Source of the DNA: Escherichia coli
Lineage (GTDB): Bacteria; Pseudomonadota; Gammaproteobacteria; Enterobacterales; Enterobacteriaceae
Length of the DNA: 64,000 nt
Assembly: GCF_002854065.1 (NCBI RefSeq)
Contig: NZ_CP024147.1
Reading direction: 5' to 3' (one strand)
The first letter of the stretch is position 1. Each line of letters opens with the position of its first letter. The translations under genes and the position numbers were made by a program. Under the pieces are notes generated by a model. The model worked only from the letters and a program-made list of their open reading frames with translations, ran no database searches and had not been told where the DNA came from. Shown here piece by piece: positions 10,855 to 61,545 of the stretch.

Positions 10855-10950
10855 TTATTCTCTTTCTGAATATAAAAATGAACCCTCAACGCTTCCCTCA
10901 ATGTTTGGGGAGCCATGCGGGTTCAATCATACACGGGAAGCGAGGCGCTT
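10855..10950 (-). ncRNA. sroE: Candidate SroE-type small RNA / structured element in the ispG-hisS spacer
   Basis: 110-bp spacer between ispG stop and hisS start contains a perfect 8-bp-stem hairpin (gggaagcg-cct-cgcttccc on the minus strand) and other structure; an sRNA called SroE is reported at this position in K-12 (recollection). Ends not determinable from sequence. Confidence 0.4.
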
Positions 10951-10962
10951 CCCATCACGTTA

Positions 10963-12081
10963 TTATTTTTCGACCTGCTGAACGTCAATTCGACGCGCTT
11001 CGTCCAGCTGACTGGCTTTCGCACGAATGCGTGCTTCCAGCTGGTCGATCATATCGTTGTTGTCCAGACGGTCTTTGCGCACGCCATCTTCATAGAGGCC
11101 GCTTTTCTTGTTGCCGCCGGTGACGCCGAGTGTAGAAACCAGCGCCTCACCCGGGCCATTCACCACGCAGCCGATAATCGAAACGTCCATCGGAGTGATG
11201 ATATCTTCCAGGCGTTGCTCCAGCGCGTTAACCGTACCGATAACATCAAACTCCTGACGCGAACAGGTCGGACAGGCGATGAAGTTGATACCTCGCGAAC
11301 GGATACGAAGCGATTTCAAAATATCGAAACCGACTTTGATCTCTTCGACCGGATCGGCCGCCAGTGATACGCGCAGCGTGTCGCCGATGCCTTCAGACAG
11401 CAGCAAACCTAAACCAATGGCGGATTTTACTGCCCCGCTGCGCGCGCCACCCGCTTCGGTGATCCCCAGATGCAGCGGCTGATCGATTTGTTTTGCCAGC
11501 AAACGATAAGACTCAACAGCGAGGAAGACGTCAGACGCTTTCACGCTGACTTTGAACTGATCGAAGTTCAGGCGATCGAGATGATCAACATGACGCATGG
11601 CGGATTCCAGCAACGCCTGCGGCGTCGGTTCGCCATACTTTTCTTGCAGATCTTTTTCCAGCGATCCGGCGTTAACGCCAATACGGATCGGAATGTTTTT
11701 ATCGCGCGCACAGTCAACCACCATGCGAATACGCTCTTCATTACCGATATTGCCAGGATTAATACGCAGACAATCGACGCCGTATTCCGCTACTTTCAGC
11801 GCAATGCGATAGTCGAAGTGGATGTCAGCCACCAGCGGCACGTTAACCTGCTGTTTGATGAGTTTGAACGCTTCTGCCGCGTCCATCGTCGGTACAGATA
11901 CACGGACGATATCAGCGCCAACGCGTTCCAGCGCCTTGATTTGATTGACCGTTGCTTCGACGTCTGTCGTACGCGTATTGGTCATGGACTGTACGGCGAT
12001 GGGAGCACCATCGCCAATCGGCACATTCCCAACGTAAATACGTGTTGATTTTCTACGTTGAATTGGAGCCTGGTTATGCAT
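10963..12081 (-). CDS. ispG: 4-hydroxy-3-methylbut-2-enyl diphosphate synthase IspG (GcpE)
   Basis: ORF track 372 aa, [39 protein letters not shown].. ; MEP-pathway enzyme. Confidence 0.95.
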
Positions 12082-23629: not shown

Positions 23630-23731
23630 ATAAAAAACCGCCGAATTTGGCGGTTTTTTATTGCTGGTCTGGTTCGCGGCCTTTCCAGCAGGTTGACTTG
23701 TGTTGCCGGAGCAACGCAGGCACCCCACAGT
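23630..23731 (-). ncRNA. Candidate antisense sRNA of ryfA copy 1 (TimR/RyfB-like)
   Basis: Minus-strand sigma70-like promoter (-35 TTGACA at 23761-23766, 17-bp spacer, -10 GAGTAT at 23738-23743); predicted 5' end carries the reverse complement of caggcaccccacagtg (23717-23732), which recurs at 23879-23894 in the ryfA leader; 3' end at the bidirectional terminator. Ends approximate. Confidence 0.45.
23632..23660. terminator. Bidirectional rho-independent terminator (sseA on plus; candidate antisense sRNA on minus)
   Basis: aaaaaaccgccgaatttggcggtttttta: GC stem aaccgcc/ggcggtt flanked by an A run and a T run. Confidence 0.8.
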
Positions 23732-23865
23732 GTTGAAATACTCTCTTTTATGCCTGGCTGTGTCAAGATAATAAACAGAGTAATTATTCAAACATGAGAG
23801 TATTATTCTTAATGGCCCTTTTCGCCGTCTCGCAAACGGGCGCTGGCTTTAGGAAAGGATGTTCC

Positions 23866-23961
23866 ATGACCGTAAATACAGGCACCCCACAGTGCTTGCT
23901 ATCGCGGCAATATCGCCAGTGGTGCTGTCGTGATGCGGTCTTCGCATGGACCGCACAATGA
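23866..23961 (+). CDS. Leader ORF (31 codons) with strong SD, translationally coupled to the downstream toxin-like ORF
   Basis: AGGAAAGGA 6 nt upstream of ATG; MTVNTGTPQCLLSRQYRQWCCRDAVFAWTAQ; its TGA stop overlaps the ATG of the next ORF (caATGA). Codons 5-10 coincide with the 16-nt antisense target. Coding status is inferred. Confidence 0.4.
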   Translation: MTVNTGTPQCLLSRQYRQWCCRDAVFAWTAQ

Positions 23962-24083
23962 AGATACGGTGCTTCTGTATCGTACTTATTGTTTCTGGTG
24001 CGCTGTTAACCGAGGTAAATAATAACCTGAGTCTCTCCGGCAACAATTTACTGGTGGTTAACAACCTTCAGAACAGCAGGTAA
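23958..24083 (+). CDS. Small hydrophobic toxin-like protein (41 aa), TimP/RyfA-type candidate
   Basis: MKIRCFCIVLIVSGALLTEVNNNLSLSGNNLLVVNNLQNSR; no own SD, start overlaps leader stop; identical amino-acid sequence in copy 2 with a single synonymous difference, whereas flanking DNA differs at many positions. Confidence 0.5.
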   Translation: MKIRCFCIVLIVSGALLTEVNNNLSLSGNNLLVVNNLQNSR

Positions 24084-24113
24084 GCCCGAATGCCGCCCTT
24101 TGGGGCGGCATAT

Positions 24114-24197
24114 TTAGATTATCCGATTCTGTTTAAAGTCACGCAAAAAACCACCCCAGCGACGTTCATAGAATGGCGCAATATGTTCGATATTAAA
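24114..24197 (-). pseudogene. Detached duplicate of the sseB 3' end (last ~25 codons plus stop)
   Basis: Minus-strand translation gives ..IEHIAPFYERRWGGFLRDFKQNRII*, identical to the C-terminus of the intact sseB at 24796-24880; no upstream coding continuation. Confidence 0.65.
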
Positions 24198-24311
24198 ATG
24201 ACCTGGCTTATTAGTCCGAATTCAGACAAATATAAACAAATCCCGCTCAATATTAAAAATACTAACCGGTAAAAGATATTACTTAAACATGTAAATTCAC
24301 TTTCTTTAAGC

Positions 24312-24415
24312 AACAAAAAACCGCCAAAATCAGGCGGTTATTTGTTGCCGGTTTGGTTCGCGGCCTCTCCAGCAGATTGACTTGTGTTGCATGAGCAACG
24401 CAGGTGCTTCACAGC
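24312..24415 (-). ncRNA. Candidate antisense sRNA of ryfA copy 2 (TimR/RyfB-like)
   Basis: Minus-strand promoter -35 TTGACA (24445-24450), 17-bp spacer, -10 GAATAT (24422-24427); 5' region complementary to caggtgcttcacagc (24401-24415), matching the copy-2 leader site caggtgtttcacagc (24560-24574) with one G-U wobble; terminator hairpin at 24318-24345. Confidence 0.45.
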
Positions 24416-24546
24416 AGAGCAATATTCGCCAGCAACTCTCTTTTTGTCAAGCAAAAGAGAGTAATTATTGTTTATTTAGCGTATTATCGACACCGGCCCT
24501 TTCCGCCGTCTCGCAAACGGGCGCTGGCTTTAGGAAAGGATGTTCC

Positions 24547-24642
24547 GTGGCCGTAAATGCAGGTGTTTCACAGCGCTTGCTATCGCGGCAATATCGCCAG
24601 TGGTGCTGTCGTGATGCGGTCTTCGCATGGACCGCACAATGA
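24547..24642 (+). CDS. Leader ORF of copy 2 (GTG start), coupled to the toxin-like ORF
   Basis: Same SD AGGAAAGGA; GTG instead of ATG; five amino-acid differences in the first 10 codons, all inside the antisense target; stop overlaps the next ATG. Confidence 0.35.
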   Translation: MAVNAGVSQRLLSRQYRQWCCRDAVFAWTAQ

Positions 24643-24764
24643 AGATACGGTGCTTTTGTATCGTACTTATTGTTTCTGGTGCGCTGTTAACCGAGGTAAA
24701 TAATAACCTGAGTCTCTCCGGCAACAATTTACTGGTGGTTAACAACCTTCAGAACAGCAGGTAA
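24639..24764 (+). CDS. Small hydrophobic toxin-like protein (41 aa), copy 2
   Basis: Same protein as copy 1 (MKIRCFCIVLIVSGALL..), one synonymous change (TTC to TTT). Confidence 0.5.
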   Translation: MKIRCFCIVLIVSGALLTEVNNNLSLSGNNLLVVNNLQNSR

Positions 24765-24795
24765 GCCCGAATGCCGCCCTTTGGGGCGGCATATT

Positions 24796-25572
24796 TTAGA
24801 TTATCCGGTTCTGTTTAAAGTCACGCAAAAAACCACCCCAACGACGTTCATAGAATGGCGCAATATGTTCGGTAATAAAGTGGCTAATTCCTTTTTCCCC
24901 TTTTTTCACCTGACAAATATCGATTGGTTCATCGCCAGGTAATGTATCGGTCGCTACACTTCCCGCCGCCTGAATAATTTCTTCGATATCACCATCGGCT
25001 TCAATGCCAATAAGTAAATTAGGCTGTGCCTCTTCGTTCTCTTTAATTGAACATATAAAAGCACGCTTCACCGGCTTAATAGTTTTAAATAAGGTGGTGA
25101 GTGAATCAATCATTTGTGCTGGCGGCTCTGCGACTTCCGATAATATTAGCGATTCACCGCCTTCCAGTACTTCCTGGCTACTCAGCGGATTCCCTTCTTC
25201 ACCAATCAACAAACTGATTTCACGCGGCATAAATTCTTTACCGGTTGGCAGTTTGGCATTAAGGAAGAGCGTTTCGCCAAGGGTCATCTCAAACAATGTG
25301 CGAACGGGCATTACTACAAATGCCTGTTCGTCTTCAACCGCCTGTTGAAGTGCTTCTAACGAGGTAAAAAAAGGAATGACGCTGGTGCCGTCTTCTTTTT
25401 CCCAATGCTGTAAATCAAGCGCACTATCTTCAACCACAGCCTCGCCCTGCGCCGCCGTACCAGGCACCCAGACGGTGGATCCCAGTAGAGTACGGAAAAA
25501 GGCCGGGCGGTGCGCCGGTTCGGTTGCTGCTTTTTCCAGCAGGTCTTCAAGTTCGTTTTTTGTTTCGGACAT
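24796..25572 (-). CDS. sseB: Protein SseB (enhanced serine sensitivity)
   Basis: ORF track frame 24796-25581; conserved start MSETKNELEDLLEKAATEP at ATG 25570-25572 (258 aa). Confidence 0.9.
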   Translation of the reverse strand: MSETKNELEDLLEKAATEPAHRPAFFRTLLGSTVWVPGTAAQGEAVVEDSALDLQHWEKEDGTSVIPFFTSLEALQQAVEDEQAFVVMPVRTLFEMTLGETLFLNAKLPTGKEFMPREISLLIGEEGNPLSSQEVLEGGESLILSEVAEPPAQMIDSLTTLFKTIKPVKRAFICSIKENEEAQPNLLIGIEADGDIEEIIQAAGSVATDTLPGDEPIDICQVKKGEKGISHFITEHIAPFYERRWGGFLRDFKQNRII

Positions 25573-32052: not shown

Positions 32053-32163
32053 TGCTCTATAAACTCCGTACATCACTCAATGCAAGGAACCAGGCTACCG
32101 GCTGGATGTACGACCGTGTTTACGGAGTATTTAGCACTCCGGCCTGATTCTGAATTCTTTTTA

Positions 32164-61360: not shown

Positions 61361-61545
61361 CAACAAAGCCGGGAATTACCCGGCTTTGTTATGGAATAAG
61401 GCGGTGCCTAACTCGACGTTTCGCCCGATGGTTGATATAGCTACGCTGATATCAGAAGTTGGACGGCAGGCACCTTGTTGTGCGTCATTCGAATTTTATG
61501 TAGCACGTCCCGAAGGGGCTGACATAAGTCGGTGAATGAGCCACT
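61361..61545 (-). ncRNA. glmY: Small RNA GlmY
   Basis: Minus-strand sequence AGTGGCTCATTCACCGACTTATGTCAGCCCCTTCGGGACGTGC...AAAGCCGGGTAATTCCCGGCTTTGTTG matches my recollection of GlmY (about 184 nt); terminator hairpin at 61365-61387 plus U-rich tail; sits 58 bp upstream of glrK. Confidence 0.85.

What the first reader, a model, noticed from the sequence alone, without database searches (positions are those of the whole stretch)
23717..24574. Co-varying 15-16-nt direct repeats predict two orthogonal antisense/target pairs
Within copy 1 the 16-mer caggcaccccacagtg occurs twice on the plus strand (23717-23732 near the divergent sRNA 5' end, and 23879-23894 inside the ryfA leader). Within copy 2 the two corresponding sites are caggtgcttcacagc (24401-24415) and caggtgtttcacagc (24560-24574). 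Each copy's two sites match each other (copy 2 with a single C/T difference that becomes a G-U wobble in an RNA duplex) but differ from the other copy at about five central positions. Direct repeats transcribed from opposite strands yield complementary RNAs, so this is the signature of a trans-acting antisense sRNA and its target, and the compensatory changes imply each sRNA is specific for its own ryfA copy.
Basis: seen in the sequence. Interest (0 to 1): 0.75.

Follow-up and report, generated by a model that had tools for sequence, protein, structure and literature searches.

The report
Duplicated TimP toxin / TimR antisense locus
The repeats are real: they are the base-pairing sites of two side-by-side copies of a known toxin gene (timP, inside the ryfA RNA), each with its own matching repressor RNA (TimR, also called RyfB), but this arrangement and its copy-specific repression were already published for Shigella dysenteriae and Salmonella.

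Summary
Both repeat pairs sit exactly where stated, and none is expected by chance.

The window is E. coli, 100% identical to strain EC1515. The region lies between sseA and sseB and holds two tandem units of about 682 bp. Each unit has a divergent minus-strand TimR (RyfB) gene and a plus-strand ryfA/timP gene. The upstream repeat is the extreme 5' end of TimR. The downstream repeat lies in stem-loop 2 of the timP leader, about 65 nt upstream of the start codon.

Predicted duplexes favour the cognate pairs: -40 and -39 kcal/mol, against -31 and -24 for the crosses.

- Fris et al. 2017 described ryfA1/ryfA2 with ryfB1/ryfB2, the 5-nt variable region, and RyfB1 lowering only RyfA1.
- Andresen et al. 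2020 proved the pairing by compensatory mutations.

Orthogonality is predicted to be asymmetric. TimR1 can still pair with timP2 through five consecutive G·U wobbles.

A survey of 5,426 E. coli genomes added detail:
- There are at least three matched specificity classes, in arrays of one to three units.
- One genome was found (class C) whose timP lacks a cognate TimR.
- Extra TimR genes without a matching target are common, including in K-12.

The parts
23630..23732 (-). TimR1 (RyfB1-type) antitoxin sRNA gene, about 103 nt, specificity class A. From 5' to 3': pairing site, a 5-bp stem-loop, a middle stem-loop, and a rho-independent terminator shared with sseA.
   Evidence: The 5' end is taken from the Fris 2017 RyfB1 cloning primer CACTGTGGGGTGCCTG, the reverse complement of 23717-23732. 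The terminator inverted repeat is 23627-23645/23646-23664. The consensus structure has compensatory changes between alleles. Expression was not measured in this strain.
23717..23732 (-). TimR1 5'-terminal pairing site. The RNA reads 5'-CACUGUGGGGUGCCUG.
   Evidence: It is an exact 16-nt direct repeat of 23879-23894. The in-register pairing is 16 Watson-Crick pairs.
23738..23766 (-). Putative TimR1 promoter: -35 TTGACA (23766-23761), 17-nt spacer, -10 GAGTAT (23743-23738). The proposed start at 23732 lies 6 nt downstream.
   Evidence: Read directly from the sequence. The -10 matches only 3 of 6 consensus positions, so the consensus scan did not list it. The aligned copy-2 promoter was listed.
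23812..24116 (+). ryfA1 / timP1 mRNA, with a leader of about 145 nt, the ORF and a terminator.
   Evidence: Rfam RF00126: 315.7 bits, full length 1-296. Terminator at 24090-24111.
23879..23894 (+). TimR1 target in the timP1 leader, about +65 to +80. It covers the 5' arm and loop of stem-loop 2. The variable nucleotides CACCC bridge the arm and the loop.
   Evidence: loop nucleotides have P(unpaired) of about 1.0. Salmonella SL2 holds the TimR site (PMC11228461).
23958..24083 (+). timP1 ORF, 41 aa: MKIRCFCIVLIVSGALLTEVNNNLSLSGNNLLVVNNLQNSR.
   Evidence: Translation. NCBIfam NF040796 toxic_TimP: 77.7 bits against a cut-off of 45. RefSeq annotates timP here in the identical strain EC1515.
24113..24200 (-). 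Duplicated 3' fragment of sseB that marks the end of repeat unit 1. It is 94% identical to 24795-24882 in the intact sseB.
   Evidence: Repeat family D3. RefSeq annotates an sseB pseudogene fragment here.
24313..24416 (-). TimR2 (RyfB2-type) antitoxin sRNA gene, specificity class B.
   Evidence: It aligns to TimR1. Terminator at 24339-24319 on the minus strand and a promoter-like site, TTGACA 18 nt AATATT, at 24450-24421.
24401..24415 (-). TimR2 5'-terminal pairing site. The RNA reads 5'-(U)GCUGUGAAGCACCUG.
   Evidence: In register it pairs with the timP2 target over 17 positions, 15 Watson-Crick and 2 G·U.
24493..24797 (+). ryfA2 / timP2 mRNA.
   Evidence: Rfam RF00126: 313.8 bits.
24560..24574 (+). 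TimR2 target in the timP2 leader, with variable nucleotides TGTTT.
   Evidence: The sequence is identical to the Fris 2017 ryfA2 probe TAAATGCAGGTGTTTCACAGCGCTT.
24639..24764 (+). timP2 ORF, encoding the same 41-aa protein as timP1.
   Evidence: Both copies carry the same RefSeq protein, WP_001491247.1.

Best explanation
The locus is a tandem duplication of the enterobacterial timPR type I toxin-antitoxin module, historically called ryfA/ryfB.

Each unit transcribes a timP mRNA of about 300 nt on the + strand. [quoted passage not shown] Each unit also transcribes, divergently and without overlap, a TimR sRNA of about 100 nt.

The first ~16 nt of TimR are complementary to stem-loop 2 of the timP 5'UTR, about 65 nt upstream of the start codon. 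Pairing there does not occlude the ribosome-binding site. In Salmonella it opens SL2, destabilises an SL1-SL3 pseudoknot that translation initiation needs, and keeps the Shine-Dalgarno sequence locked in SL4.

The two units carry different specificity alleles of the pairing site: class A (CACCC) in unit 1 and class B (TGCTT in TimR, TGTTT in the target) in unit 2. Each TimR therefore preferentially silences its own timP.

Shown here: the anatomy, the complementarity, the energetic preference for cognate pairs, and the co-variation across E. coli. Shown in the literature for orthologues: expression of both RNAs, direct pairing, translational repression, and RyfB1 acting on RyfA1 but not RyfA2. 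Inferred for this strain: expression, TimP toxicity, and the specificity of TimR2.
For: - Rfam ryfA matches twice at full length.
- TimP matches NF040796 above its cut-off, and the two ORFs are identical. RefSeq annotates timP twice between sseA and sseB in the 100%-identical strain EC1515.
- The repeats are exact and none is expected by chance.
- TimR anatomy is conserved, with compensatory stem changes between alleles and a terminator.
- Local hybrid energy followed by total after opening energies, in kcal/mol: TimR1 x timP1 -40.1 / -14.0; TimR2 x timP2 -39.0 / -14.8; TimR1 x timP2 -31.1 / -5.8; TimR2 x timP1 -24.1 / +9.3.
- The target lies in the 5' arm and loop of SL2.
- A 7-bp SL1/SL3 complementarity, CGCUGGC/GCCAGUG, is present in both copies.
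- In the E. coli population, class A had both sites in 578 of 578 genomes that had either.
- Only 1 genome carries a class-C target next to TimR-B with no TimR-C (216 against 215).
- Literature: PMC5333039, PMC7667032, PMC11228461, PMC13000454.
Against: - There are no transcript data for this strain.
- The TimR1 -10 element (GAGTAT) matches the consensus poorly.
- Whether TimP is made in Escherichia or Shigella is contested. Fris 2017 saw no translation from a leader fusion, although that fusion tested the upstream ATG and not the timP ATG. PMC13188913 reports that the ORF is not needed for the ryfA phenotypes in APEC, and that loss of timR has little effect.
- Predicted discrimination is only about 9 kcal/mol for TimR1 against timP2, because five consecutive G·U pairs keep a 15-bp run.
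- Co-occurrence of alleles 160 bp apart is partly explained by linkage. The real co-variation evidence is that the same substitutions are mirrored at both sites.
Confidence: 0.9

Rival explanations
1. RyfA acts mainly as a non-coding regulatory RNA and RyfB/TimR is its antagonist, so this is sRNA-on-sRNA control. The variable SL2 loop would be RyfA's own seed for trans targets such as ompC. The two siblings would then have different regulons, each switched off by its own RyfB.
For: - Fris 2017: RyfA1 overproduction abolishes ompC mRNA and blocks cell-to-cell spread, and the variable region is predicted single-stranded.
- UPEC and APEC ryfA deletion phenotypes are reported as independent of the ORF, and they are suppressed in the ryfA timR double mutant.
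- My folds put the variable nucleotides in the SL2 loop.
Against: - The TimP ORF is intact, identical in both copies, and scores well above the NCBIfam cut-off. The ORF is 99.2% identical between units while the regulatory sites are 62.5%.
- TimP toxicity, membrane location and TimR-dependent translational repression were shown directly in Salmonella.
- The two roles are not mutually exclusive.
Confidence: 0.25
2. The two pairs are not truly orthogonal. TimR1 (G-rich seed) also represses timP2 through G·U wobble pairing, so the system is a one-way hierarchy and not two insulated circuits.
For: - TimR-A against the class-B target gives 11 Watson-Crick pairs, 5 G·U and 1 mismatch, with a 15-bp uninterrupted run.
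- That hybrid is -31.1 kcal/mol and stays favourable (-5.8) after opening energies.
- All differences between classes A and B are transitions, which is what allows wobble in one direction.
Against: - Fris 2017 found that RyfB1 overproduction did not change RyfA2 levels. That assay measured RNA abundance, not translation.
- Five tandem G·U pairs sit in the nucleating loop region and should slow association.
Confidence: 0.25
3. The short repeats are inert by-products of the duplication or of local gene conversion, with no pairing function.
For: The region is a tandem duplication with many repeats.
Against: - The repeats lie within one unit, not between units.
- They sit at the sRNA 5' end and in a leader loop in every allele class.
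- The same substitutions are mirrored at both sites in three classes.
- Compensatory mutagenesis in Salmonella proves the function.
Confidence: 0.02

Closest known systems
ryfA1/ryfA2 with ryfB1/ryfB2 of Shigella dysenteriae (Fris et al. 2017, PMC5333039)
   Same: - Same chromosomal locus and the same tandem two-unit layout, with a ~100-nt RNA divergent from each ryfA.
- The same 5-nt variable region overlaps the complementarity.
- The RyfB1 5' sequence is identical to window 23732-23717, and the ryfA2 site is identical (TGTTT).
   Different: - S. dysenteriae RyfA1 carries CCCCC, one mismatch to RyfB1. This E. coli carries CACCC, a perfect 16-mer.
- Fris et al. interpreted the RNAs as non-coding regulators.
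timP/TimR type I toxin-antitoxin system of Salmonella Typhimurium (Andresen et al. 2020; Holmqvist-lab follow-up papers of 2024 and 2026: PMC11228461, PMC13000454)
   Same: - Orthologous ryfA RNA family and TimP protein family.
- A divergent, non-overlapping sRNA whose 5' end pairs with SL2 of the 5'UTR, far upstream of the ribosome-binding site.
- The 7-bp SL1-SL3 complementarity is present.
   Different: - The Salmonella studies describe one timP-timR pair, with an 18-nt pairing of different sequence.
- The genomic context differs: STM2534 lies between sseA and timP.
- The mechanism has been tested only in Salmonella.
zorO-orzO / zorP-orzP tandem type I loci of E. coli O157:H7 (compared by Fris 2017; details partly from my own knowledge of Wen et al. 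2014)
   Same: A tandemly duplicated type I toxin gene with a divergent, non-overlapping antitoxin sRNA that pairs over about 18 nt in the 5'UTR. A few nucleotide differences in the pairing region give copy specificity.
   Different: The toxin and RNA sequences are unrelated. zorO mRNA needs 5' processing for translation, whereas timP uses a structural switch.
tisB/istR-1 and shoB/ohsC (trans-encoded, divergent type I systems of E. coli K-12; from my own knowledge)
   Same: The antitoxin is encoded divergently, does not overlap the toxin gene, and pairs in the 5'UTR away from the ribosome-binding site. tisB also uses a pseudoknot/standby element.
   Different: Each is present once in K-12, the families are different, and both require mRNA processing.

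Membership tests
timPR (ryfA/ryfB) type I toxin-antitoxin system | The toxin transcript matches the ryfA RNA family (Rfam RF00126). | tested here: met
   Two full-length matches, 315.7 and 313.8 bits, against a gathering score of 80.
timPR (ryfA/ryfB) type I toxin-antitoxin system | A small ORF encodes TimP (NCBIfam NF040796). | tested here: met
   Both 41-aa ORFs score 77.7 bits against a cut-off of 45. They are identical.
timPR (ryfA/ryfB) type I toxin-antitoxin system | A divergent, non-overlapping sRNA gene lies upstream and ends in an intrinsic terminator. | tested here: met
   - Each unit has a -35 TTGACA with a -10 element, and a terminator.
- The structure is conserved, with compensatory pairs.
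- Transcription itself cannot be tested with these tools.
timPR (ryfA/ryfB) type I toxin-antitoxin system | The sRNA 5' end is complementary over about 16-18 nt to SL2 of the timP 5'UTR, well upstream of the ribosome-binding site. | tested here: met
   - 16 of 16 Watson-Crick pairs in unit 1.
- 17 paired positions (15 Watson-Crick, 2 G·U) in unit 2.
- The site lies at about +65 to +80, in the SL2 arm and loop.
timPR (ryfA/ryfB) type I toxin-antitoxin system | An SL1-SL3 pseudoknot is required for translation and is destabilised by TimR. | tested here: inconclusive
   A 7-bp complementarity, CGCUGGC (+27..+33) with GCCAGUG (+101..+107), is present and identical in both copies. I could not compare it with the published figure, and its function cannot be tested here.
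timPR (ryfA/ryfB) type I toxin-antitoxin system | TimP is toxic and TimR represses its translation. | not testable with these tools
   Shown only for Salmonella. It is contested or untested in E. coli.
Sibling ryfA1/ryfA2 locus as defined by Fris et al. 2017 | Two tandem ryfA copies differ mainly in a 5-nt variable region: a ryfA1-like GC-rich version against ryfA2 TGTTT. | tested here: met
   CACCC at 23883-23887 against TGTTT at 24564-24568. Both versions are listed by Fris. The ryfA2 probe sequence is identical to copy 2.
Sibling ryfA1/ryfA2 locus as defined by Fris et al. 2017 | Each copy is preceded by its own divergent ryfB, and RyfB1 acts on RyfA1 only. | tested here: inconclusive
   Both ryfB/TimR genes are present, and the RyfB1 primer equals the reverse complement of 23717-23732. 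Specificity is supported only by predicted energies. The experimental test exists for S. dysenteriae RyfB1 only.

The most novel reading that the evidence does not exclude
E. coli keeps a polymorphic 'specificity code' at this one locus. There are at least three mutually mismatched TimR/timP classes: A (CACCC), B (TGCTT in TimR, TGTTT in the target) and C (CGCGT). A fourth TimR version, D, has no known target. The classes occur singly or stacked in tandem arrays of two or three units.

A toxin gene with no cognate TimR was found in only one genome, for class C; classes A and B gave no clear case. Extra TimR genes without a matching target are common (about a third of genomes).

In K-12 the TimR gene next to timP is an unannotated class-C paralogue, and the cognate class-B TimR (annotated b4811) lies about 480 bp upstream. 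This would mean selection acts on the pairing code itself: diversification together with forced retention of the cognate antitoxin. The U-rich class-B target would be a wobble-tolerant acceptor for non-cognate TimRs.

The genome counts are solid. What is uncertain is whether this is already described somewhere I could not search, and whether selection rather than linkage and recombination history explains it.
Probability: 0.45. Interest if true: 0.45.

Novelty: already known. Interest (0 to 1): 0.2.

Why it matters
It does not open a new question.

Three modest points remain open:
- The reciprocal specificity test (TimR2/RyfB2 against both copies) has apparently not been done.
- Predicted orthogonality is one-directional because all allele differences are transitions.
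- The E. coli population survey suggests that matched toxin-antitoxin RNA specificity classes are kept together, while spare antitoxin RNAs accumulate.

These points matter for how type I toxin-antitoxin paralogues avoid or exploit cross-talk, and for interpreting K-12 timR experiments.

Tried and rejected
- RNA.duplexfold on the full-length RNAs gave meaningless long duplexes of -70 kcal/mol for all four combinations, because intramolecular structure is ignored. I replaced it with local duplexes plus opening energies.
- Fixed-anchor regular expressions missed the class-C loci, and one script failed. A multiple alignment then revealed the third allele.
- Megablast of the whole locus gave architecture classes but no allele counts. 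A query made of concatenated 46-nt allele-specific pieces solved this.
- A literature search for 'ryfC' returned nothing relevant.
- The 'RyfB' of Bak et al. 2015 is, to my knowledge, the K-12 shoB transcript and not TimR, so I did not use it.
- My first ORF coordinates were off by one and were corrected.
- I considered a cross-species scan of genome contigs to re-test TimR/timP co-variation between genera. I did not run it, because Andresen 2020 Fig. 8B already reports this and it would not change the verdict.
- The chance-repeat and duplication-relic explanations were rejected (see the rival explanations).
Full report
**Observation.** The 16-mer CAGGCACCCCACAGTG occurs exactly twice in the window, at 23717-23732 and 23879-23894 on the + strand. 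CAGGTGYTTCACAGC also occurs exactly twice, at 24401-24415 and 24560-24574. No dinucleotide-preserving shuffle produced a single match to either.

**Context.** Rfam finds two full-length ryfA RNAs, at 23812-24116 and 24493-24797 on the + strand. The window is E. coli, and this stretch is 100% identical to strain EC1515, a urinary isolate. RefSeq annotates that strain as sseA, timP, an sseB 3' fragment, timP, sseB.

The region is a tandem repeat with a period of about 682 bp. Each unit runs from the 3' end of a minus-strand sRNA gene to a piece of the sseB 3' end. Both ORFs (23958-24083 and 24639-24764) encode the same 41-aa protein, which matches NCBIfam NF040796 'toxic_TimP' at 77.7 bits against a cut-off of 45.

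**The upstream repeat is the 5' end of an sRNA gene.** On the minus strand of each unit there is:
- a perfect -35 TTGACA;
- a 17-18-nt spacer and a -10 element (GAGTAT in unit 1; GAATAT or AATATT in unit 2);
- then the repeat, a 5-bp stem-loop, a second stem-loop and a rho-independent terminator.

Between E. coli alleles the first stem shows compensatory changes: GUUGC/GCAAC becomes AUUAC/GUAAU. The RyfB1 expression clone of Fris et al. starts with CACTGTGGGGTGCCTG, the exact reverse complement of 23717-23732.

**The downstream repeat lies in the timP leader.** It sits at about +65 to +80, roughly 65 nt upstream of the start codon. In minimum-free-energy folds it forms the 5' arm and loop of a hairpin, and the variable nucleotides fall largely in the loop. 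This corresponds to stem-loop 2 of Salmonella timP, which holds the TimR-binding site.

**Pairing and specificity.** The in-register pairing tables give:

| Combination | Watson-Crick | G·U | Mismatches | Note |
|---|---|---|---|---|
| TimR1 x timP1 | 16 | 0 | 1 | the 16 pairs are contiguous |
| TimR2 x timP1 | 10 | 2 | 5 | longest paired run 7 |
| TimR1 x timP2 | 11 | 5 | 1 | five consecutive G·U; uninterrupted run of 15 |

Local hybrid energies, followed by totals after adding opening energies for both RNAs, are as follows (an earlier version with slightly different 5' ends is):

| Combination | Hybrid (kcal/mol) | Total (kcal/mol) |
|---|---|---|
| TimR1 x timP1 | -40.1 | -14.0 |
| TimR2 x timP2 | -39.0 | -14.8 |
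| TimR1 x timP2 | -31.1 | -5.8 |
| TimR2 x timP1 | -24.1 | +9.3 |

Cognate preference is therefore clear, but it is asymmetric. Every difference between the two alleles is a transition. This lets the G-rich TimR1 wobble-pair with the U-rich timP2 site, but not the reverse.

**Divergence is focused on the sites.** Identity between the two units, by segment:

| Segment | Identity |
|---|---|
| TimR body | 86% |
| Each pairing site | 62.5% |
| Divergent promoter region | 56% |
| First 64 nt of the leader | 94% |
| Rest of the leader | 100% |
| ORF | 99.2% |

The target is thus an island of change inside an almost invariant transcript, mirrored by the same changes at the sRNA 5' end.

**What is known.**
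- Fris et al. 2017 (PMC5333039) described tandem ryfA1 and ryfA2 in Shigella dysenteriae, each preceded by a divergent ~100-nt transcript (ryfB1, ryfB2) seen by RNA-seq.
- They reported 16 of 18 complementary nucleotides between RyfB1 and RyfA1, overlapping a 5-nt 'variable region'.
- They listed four versions of that region among Escherichia and Shigella: TGTTT, CGCGT, CCCCC and CACCC.
- They showed that overproduced RyfB1 lowers RyfA1 but not RyfA2. Their probes show ryfA2 with TGTTT, as in copy 2 here, and ryfA1 with CCCCC; copy 1 here has CACCC.
- Andresen et al. 2020 (PMC7667032) showed that ryfA encodes the toxic inner-membrane protein TimP. They showed that TimR pairs with the timP 5'UTR through its 5' region, using compensatory mutants and in vitro translation. 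They also reported that TimR-like complementary sequences accompany timP in all the enterobacteria they analysed.
- Later work showed that the site is in SL2, about 50 nt upstream of the ribosome-binding site. TimR binding destabilises an SL1-SL3 pseudoknot needed for initiation and favours the inactive fold.
- A 7-bp SL1/SL3 complementarity is present and identical in both copies here.

The reciprocal test of RyfB2/TimR2 specificity does not appear in the papers I read.

**A caveat on function in E. coli.** Work on UPEC and APEC treats RyfA as a regulatory RNA and reports little effect of deleting timR. It also notes that no TimP protein has been detected in E. coli. The GFP fusion of Fris et al. 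tested the leader ATG at 23866, not the timP ATG. A dual role for the RNA remains possible.

**Population survey (beyond the finding).** Aligning the sseA-timP region from a spread of E. coli genomes revealed three matched specificity classes:

| Class | TimR-side site | timP target | Example loci |
|---|---|---|---|
| A | GCAGGCACCCCACAG | same | O157, O145, unit 1 here |
| B | GCAGGTGCTTCACAGC | GCAGGTGTTTCACAGC | K-12 timP, unit 2 here |
| C | GCAAGCGCGTCTCAGCG | identical | L003, L008, L009 |

I then used queries made of concatenated 46-nt allele-specific pieces against 5,426 complete genomes. Each pair query holds one TimR-side piece and one target piece.

| Query | Genomes with any piece | Genomes with all pieces |
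|---|---|---|
| Class A pair | 578 | 578 |
| Class B pair | 2,149 | 1,941 |
| Class C pair | 4,541 | 2,981 |
| TimR-B + class-C target | 4,902 | 216 |
| TimR-B + TimR-C + class-C target | 4,906 | 215 |
| Tandem A+B, as in the window | 2,664 | 60 |

- For class B, three of the four sampled single-piece rows held the TimR piece. The one row with only the target had a second place in the record.
- For class C, all 14 sampled single-piece genomes carried only the TimR piece.
- The 216 against 215 comparison leaves one genome, NZ_CP148423, with a class-C timP and only a non-cognate TimR.
- Tandem C+B arrays occur (L011, L013).
- Four genomes carry a triple A+B+C array, for example strain GF4-3.

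Toxin genes without a cognate TimR therefore appear to be very rare, while spare TimR genes are common.

**K-12.** K-12 MG1655 belongs to the spare-TimR group. Its annotated timR (b4811) is the class-B gene next to sseA, about 480 bp upstream of the class-B target. An unannotated class-C TimR paralogue with an intact promoter and terminator lies directly upstream of timP. TimR-C is predicted to pair moderately with the class-B target: -33.4 kcal/mol against -39.3 for the cognate.

**Limits of the survey.** Sites 160 bp apart are linked, so co-occurrence alone is weak evidence. The mirrored substitutions are the stronger evidence. The counts also depend on BLAST thresholds and may miss rare variants.

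**Verdict.** The system is the known timPR (ryfA/ryfB) type I toxin-antitoxin module in its known 'sibling' tandem form, so it is not novel. The residual open points are the untested TimR2 specificity, the predicted one-way wobble cross-talk, and the allele and array polymorphism with orphan TimR genes.

Noticed in passing
L010 (K-12 MG1655, NC_000913.3 2653356-2654158); the same layout in L002 and L004: K-12 has two TimR genes and one timP. The annotated timR (b4811, class B, cognate) lies next to sseA. After it come a timP promoter with only about 18 nt of timP, an sseB fragment and a spacer. Then comes an unannotated class-C TimR paralogue directly upstream of the class-B timP. About 1,560 of 5,426 genomes carry a TimR-C without a class-C target.
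   Followed up: partly
L012 (E. coli GF4-3, NZ_CP053258.1 4320763-4323124): A triple tandem array of cognate units, A, B and C, with three timP genes and two sseB fragments. Only 4 genomes covered at least 80% of the 7-piece query. C+B double arrays occur in L011 and L013.
   Followed up: partly
L007 (E. coli Z1323CEC0015, NZ_CP148423.1 784194-785409): The only genome found in which a class-C timP target has just a class-B TimR beside it: 4 mismatches, longest paired run 5, total energy +8.5 kcal/mol. It looks like a deletion or recombination product of a B-C array. Assembly correctness was not checked.
   Followed up: partly
L003 (E. coli FDAARGOS_1291, NZ_CP069980.1), TimR-like gene next to sseA: A fourth TimR version, D, with site GCAAGTGTATCTCGTC. 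It lacks the first stem-loop (13-nt gap), and no matching timP target was seen. It accompanies a normal C/C pair. The layout appeared in 4 of 60 sampled genomes.
   Followed up: no
window 24147-24357 (+): Rfam IS128 RNA (RF00125, 227 bits) covers the junction between the two units: the sseB fragment, an AT-rich spacer and the bidirectional terminator of TimR2. The same segment separates the two TimR genes in K-12. Whether IS128 is a real + strand RNA or reflects the neighbouring TimR terminator was not examined.
   Followed up: no
window 23866-23961 (+) and 24547-24642 (+): A leader reading frame starts at ATG 23866 in copy 1 and GTG 24547 in copy 2. It runs through the TimR target and ends at a TGA that overlaps the timP ATG (ATGA). 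This is the ATG that Fris et al. fused to GFP without seeing translation. In Salmonella, mutating the start of a shorter leader uORF had no effect.
   Followed up: partly
window 23879-23894 against 24560-24574; TimR sites 23717-23732 against 24401-24416: All substitutions between classes A and B are transitions. The 5' arm of SL2 keeps pairing with a nearly constant 3' arm (G(U/C)GCUUGC) through G·U pairs. The site seems constrained by both the hairpin and TimR pairing. The U-rich class-B target is predicted to tolerate non-cognate TimR-A and TimR-C by wobble.
   Followed up: partly
window 2351-2393, 10872-10963, 32054-32163, 61398-61545: Other Rfam matches above the gathering score are ES036 (CssrF), sroE, the iscRS stability element and GlmY. 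They were not examined further.
   Followed up: no
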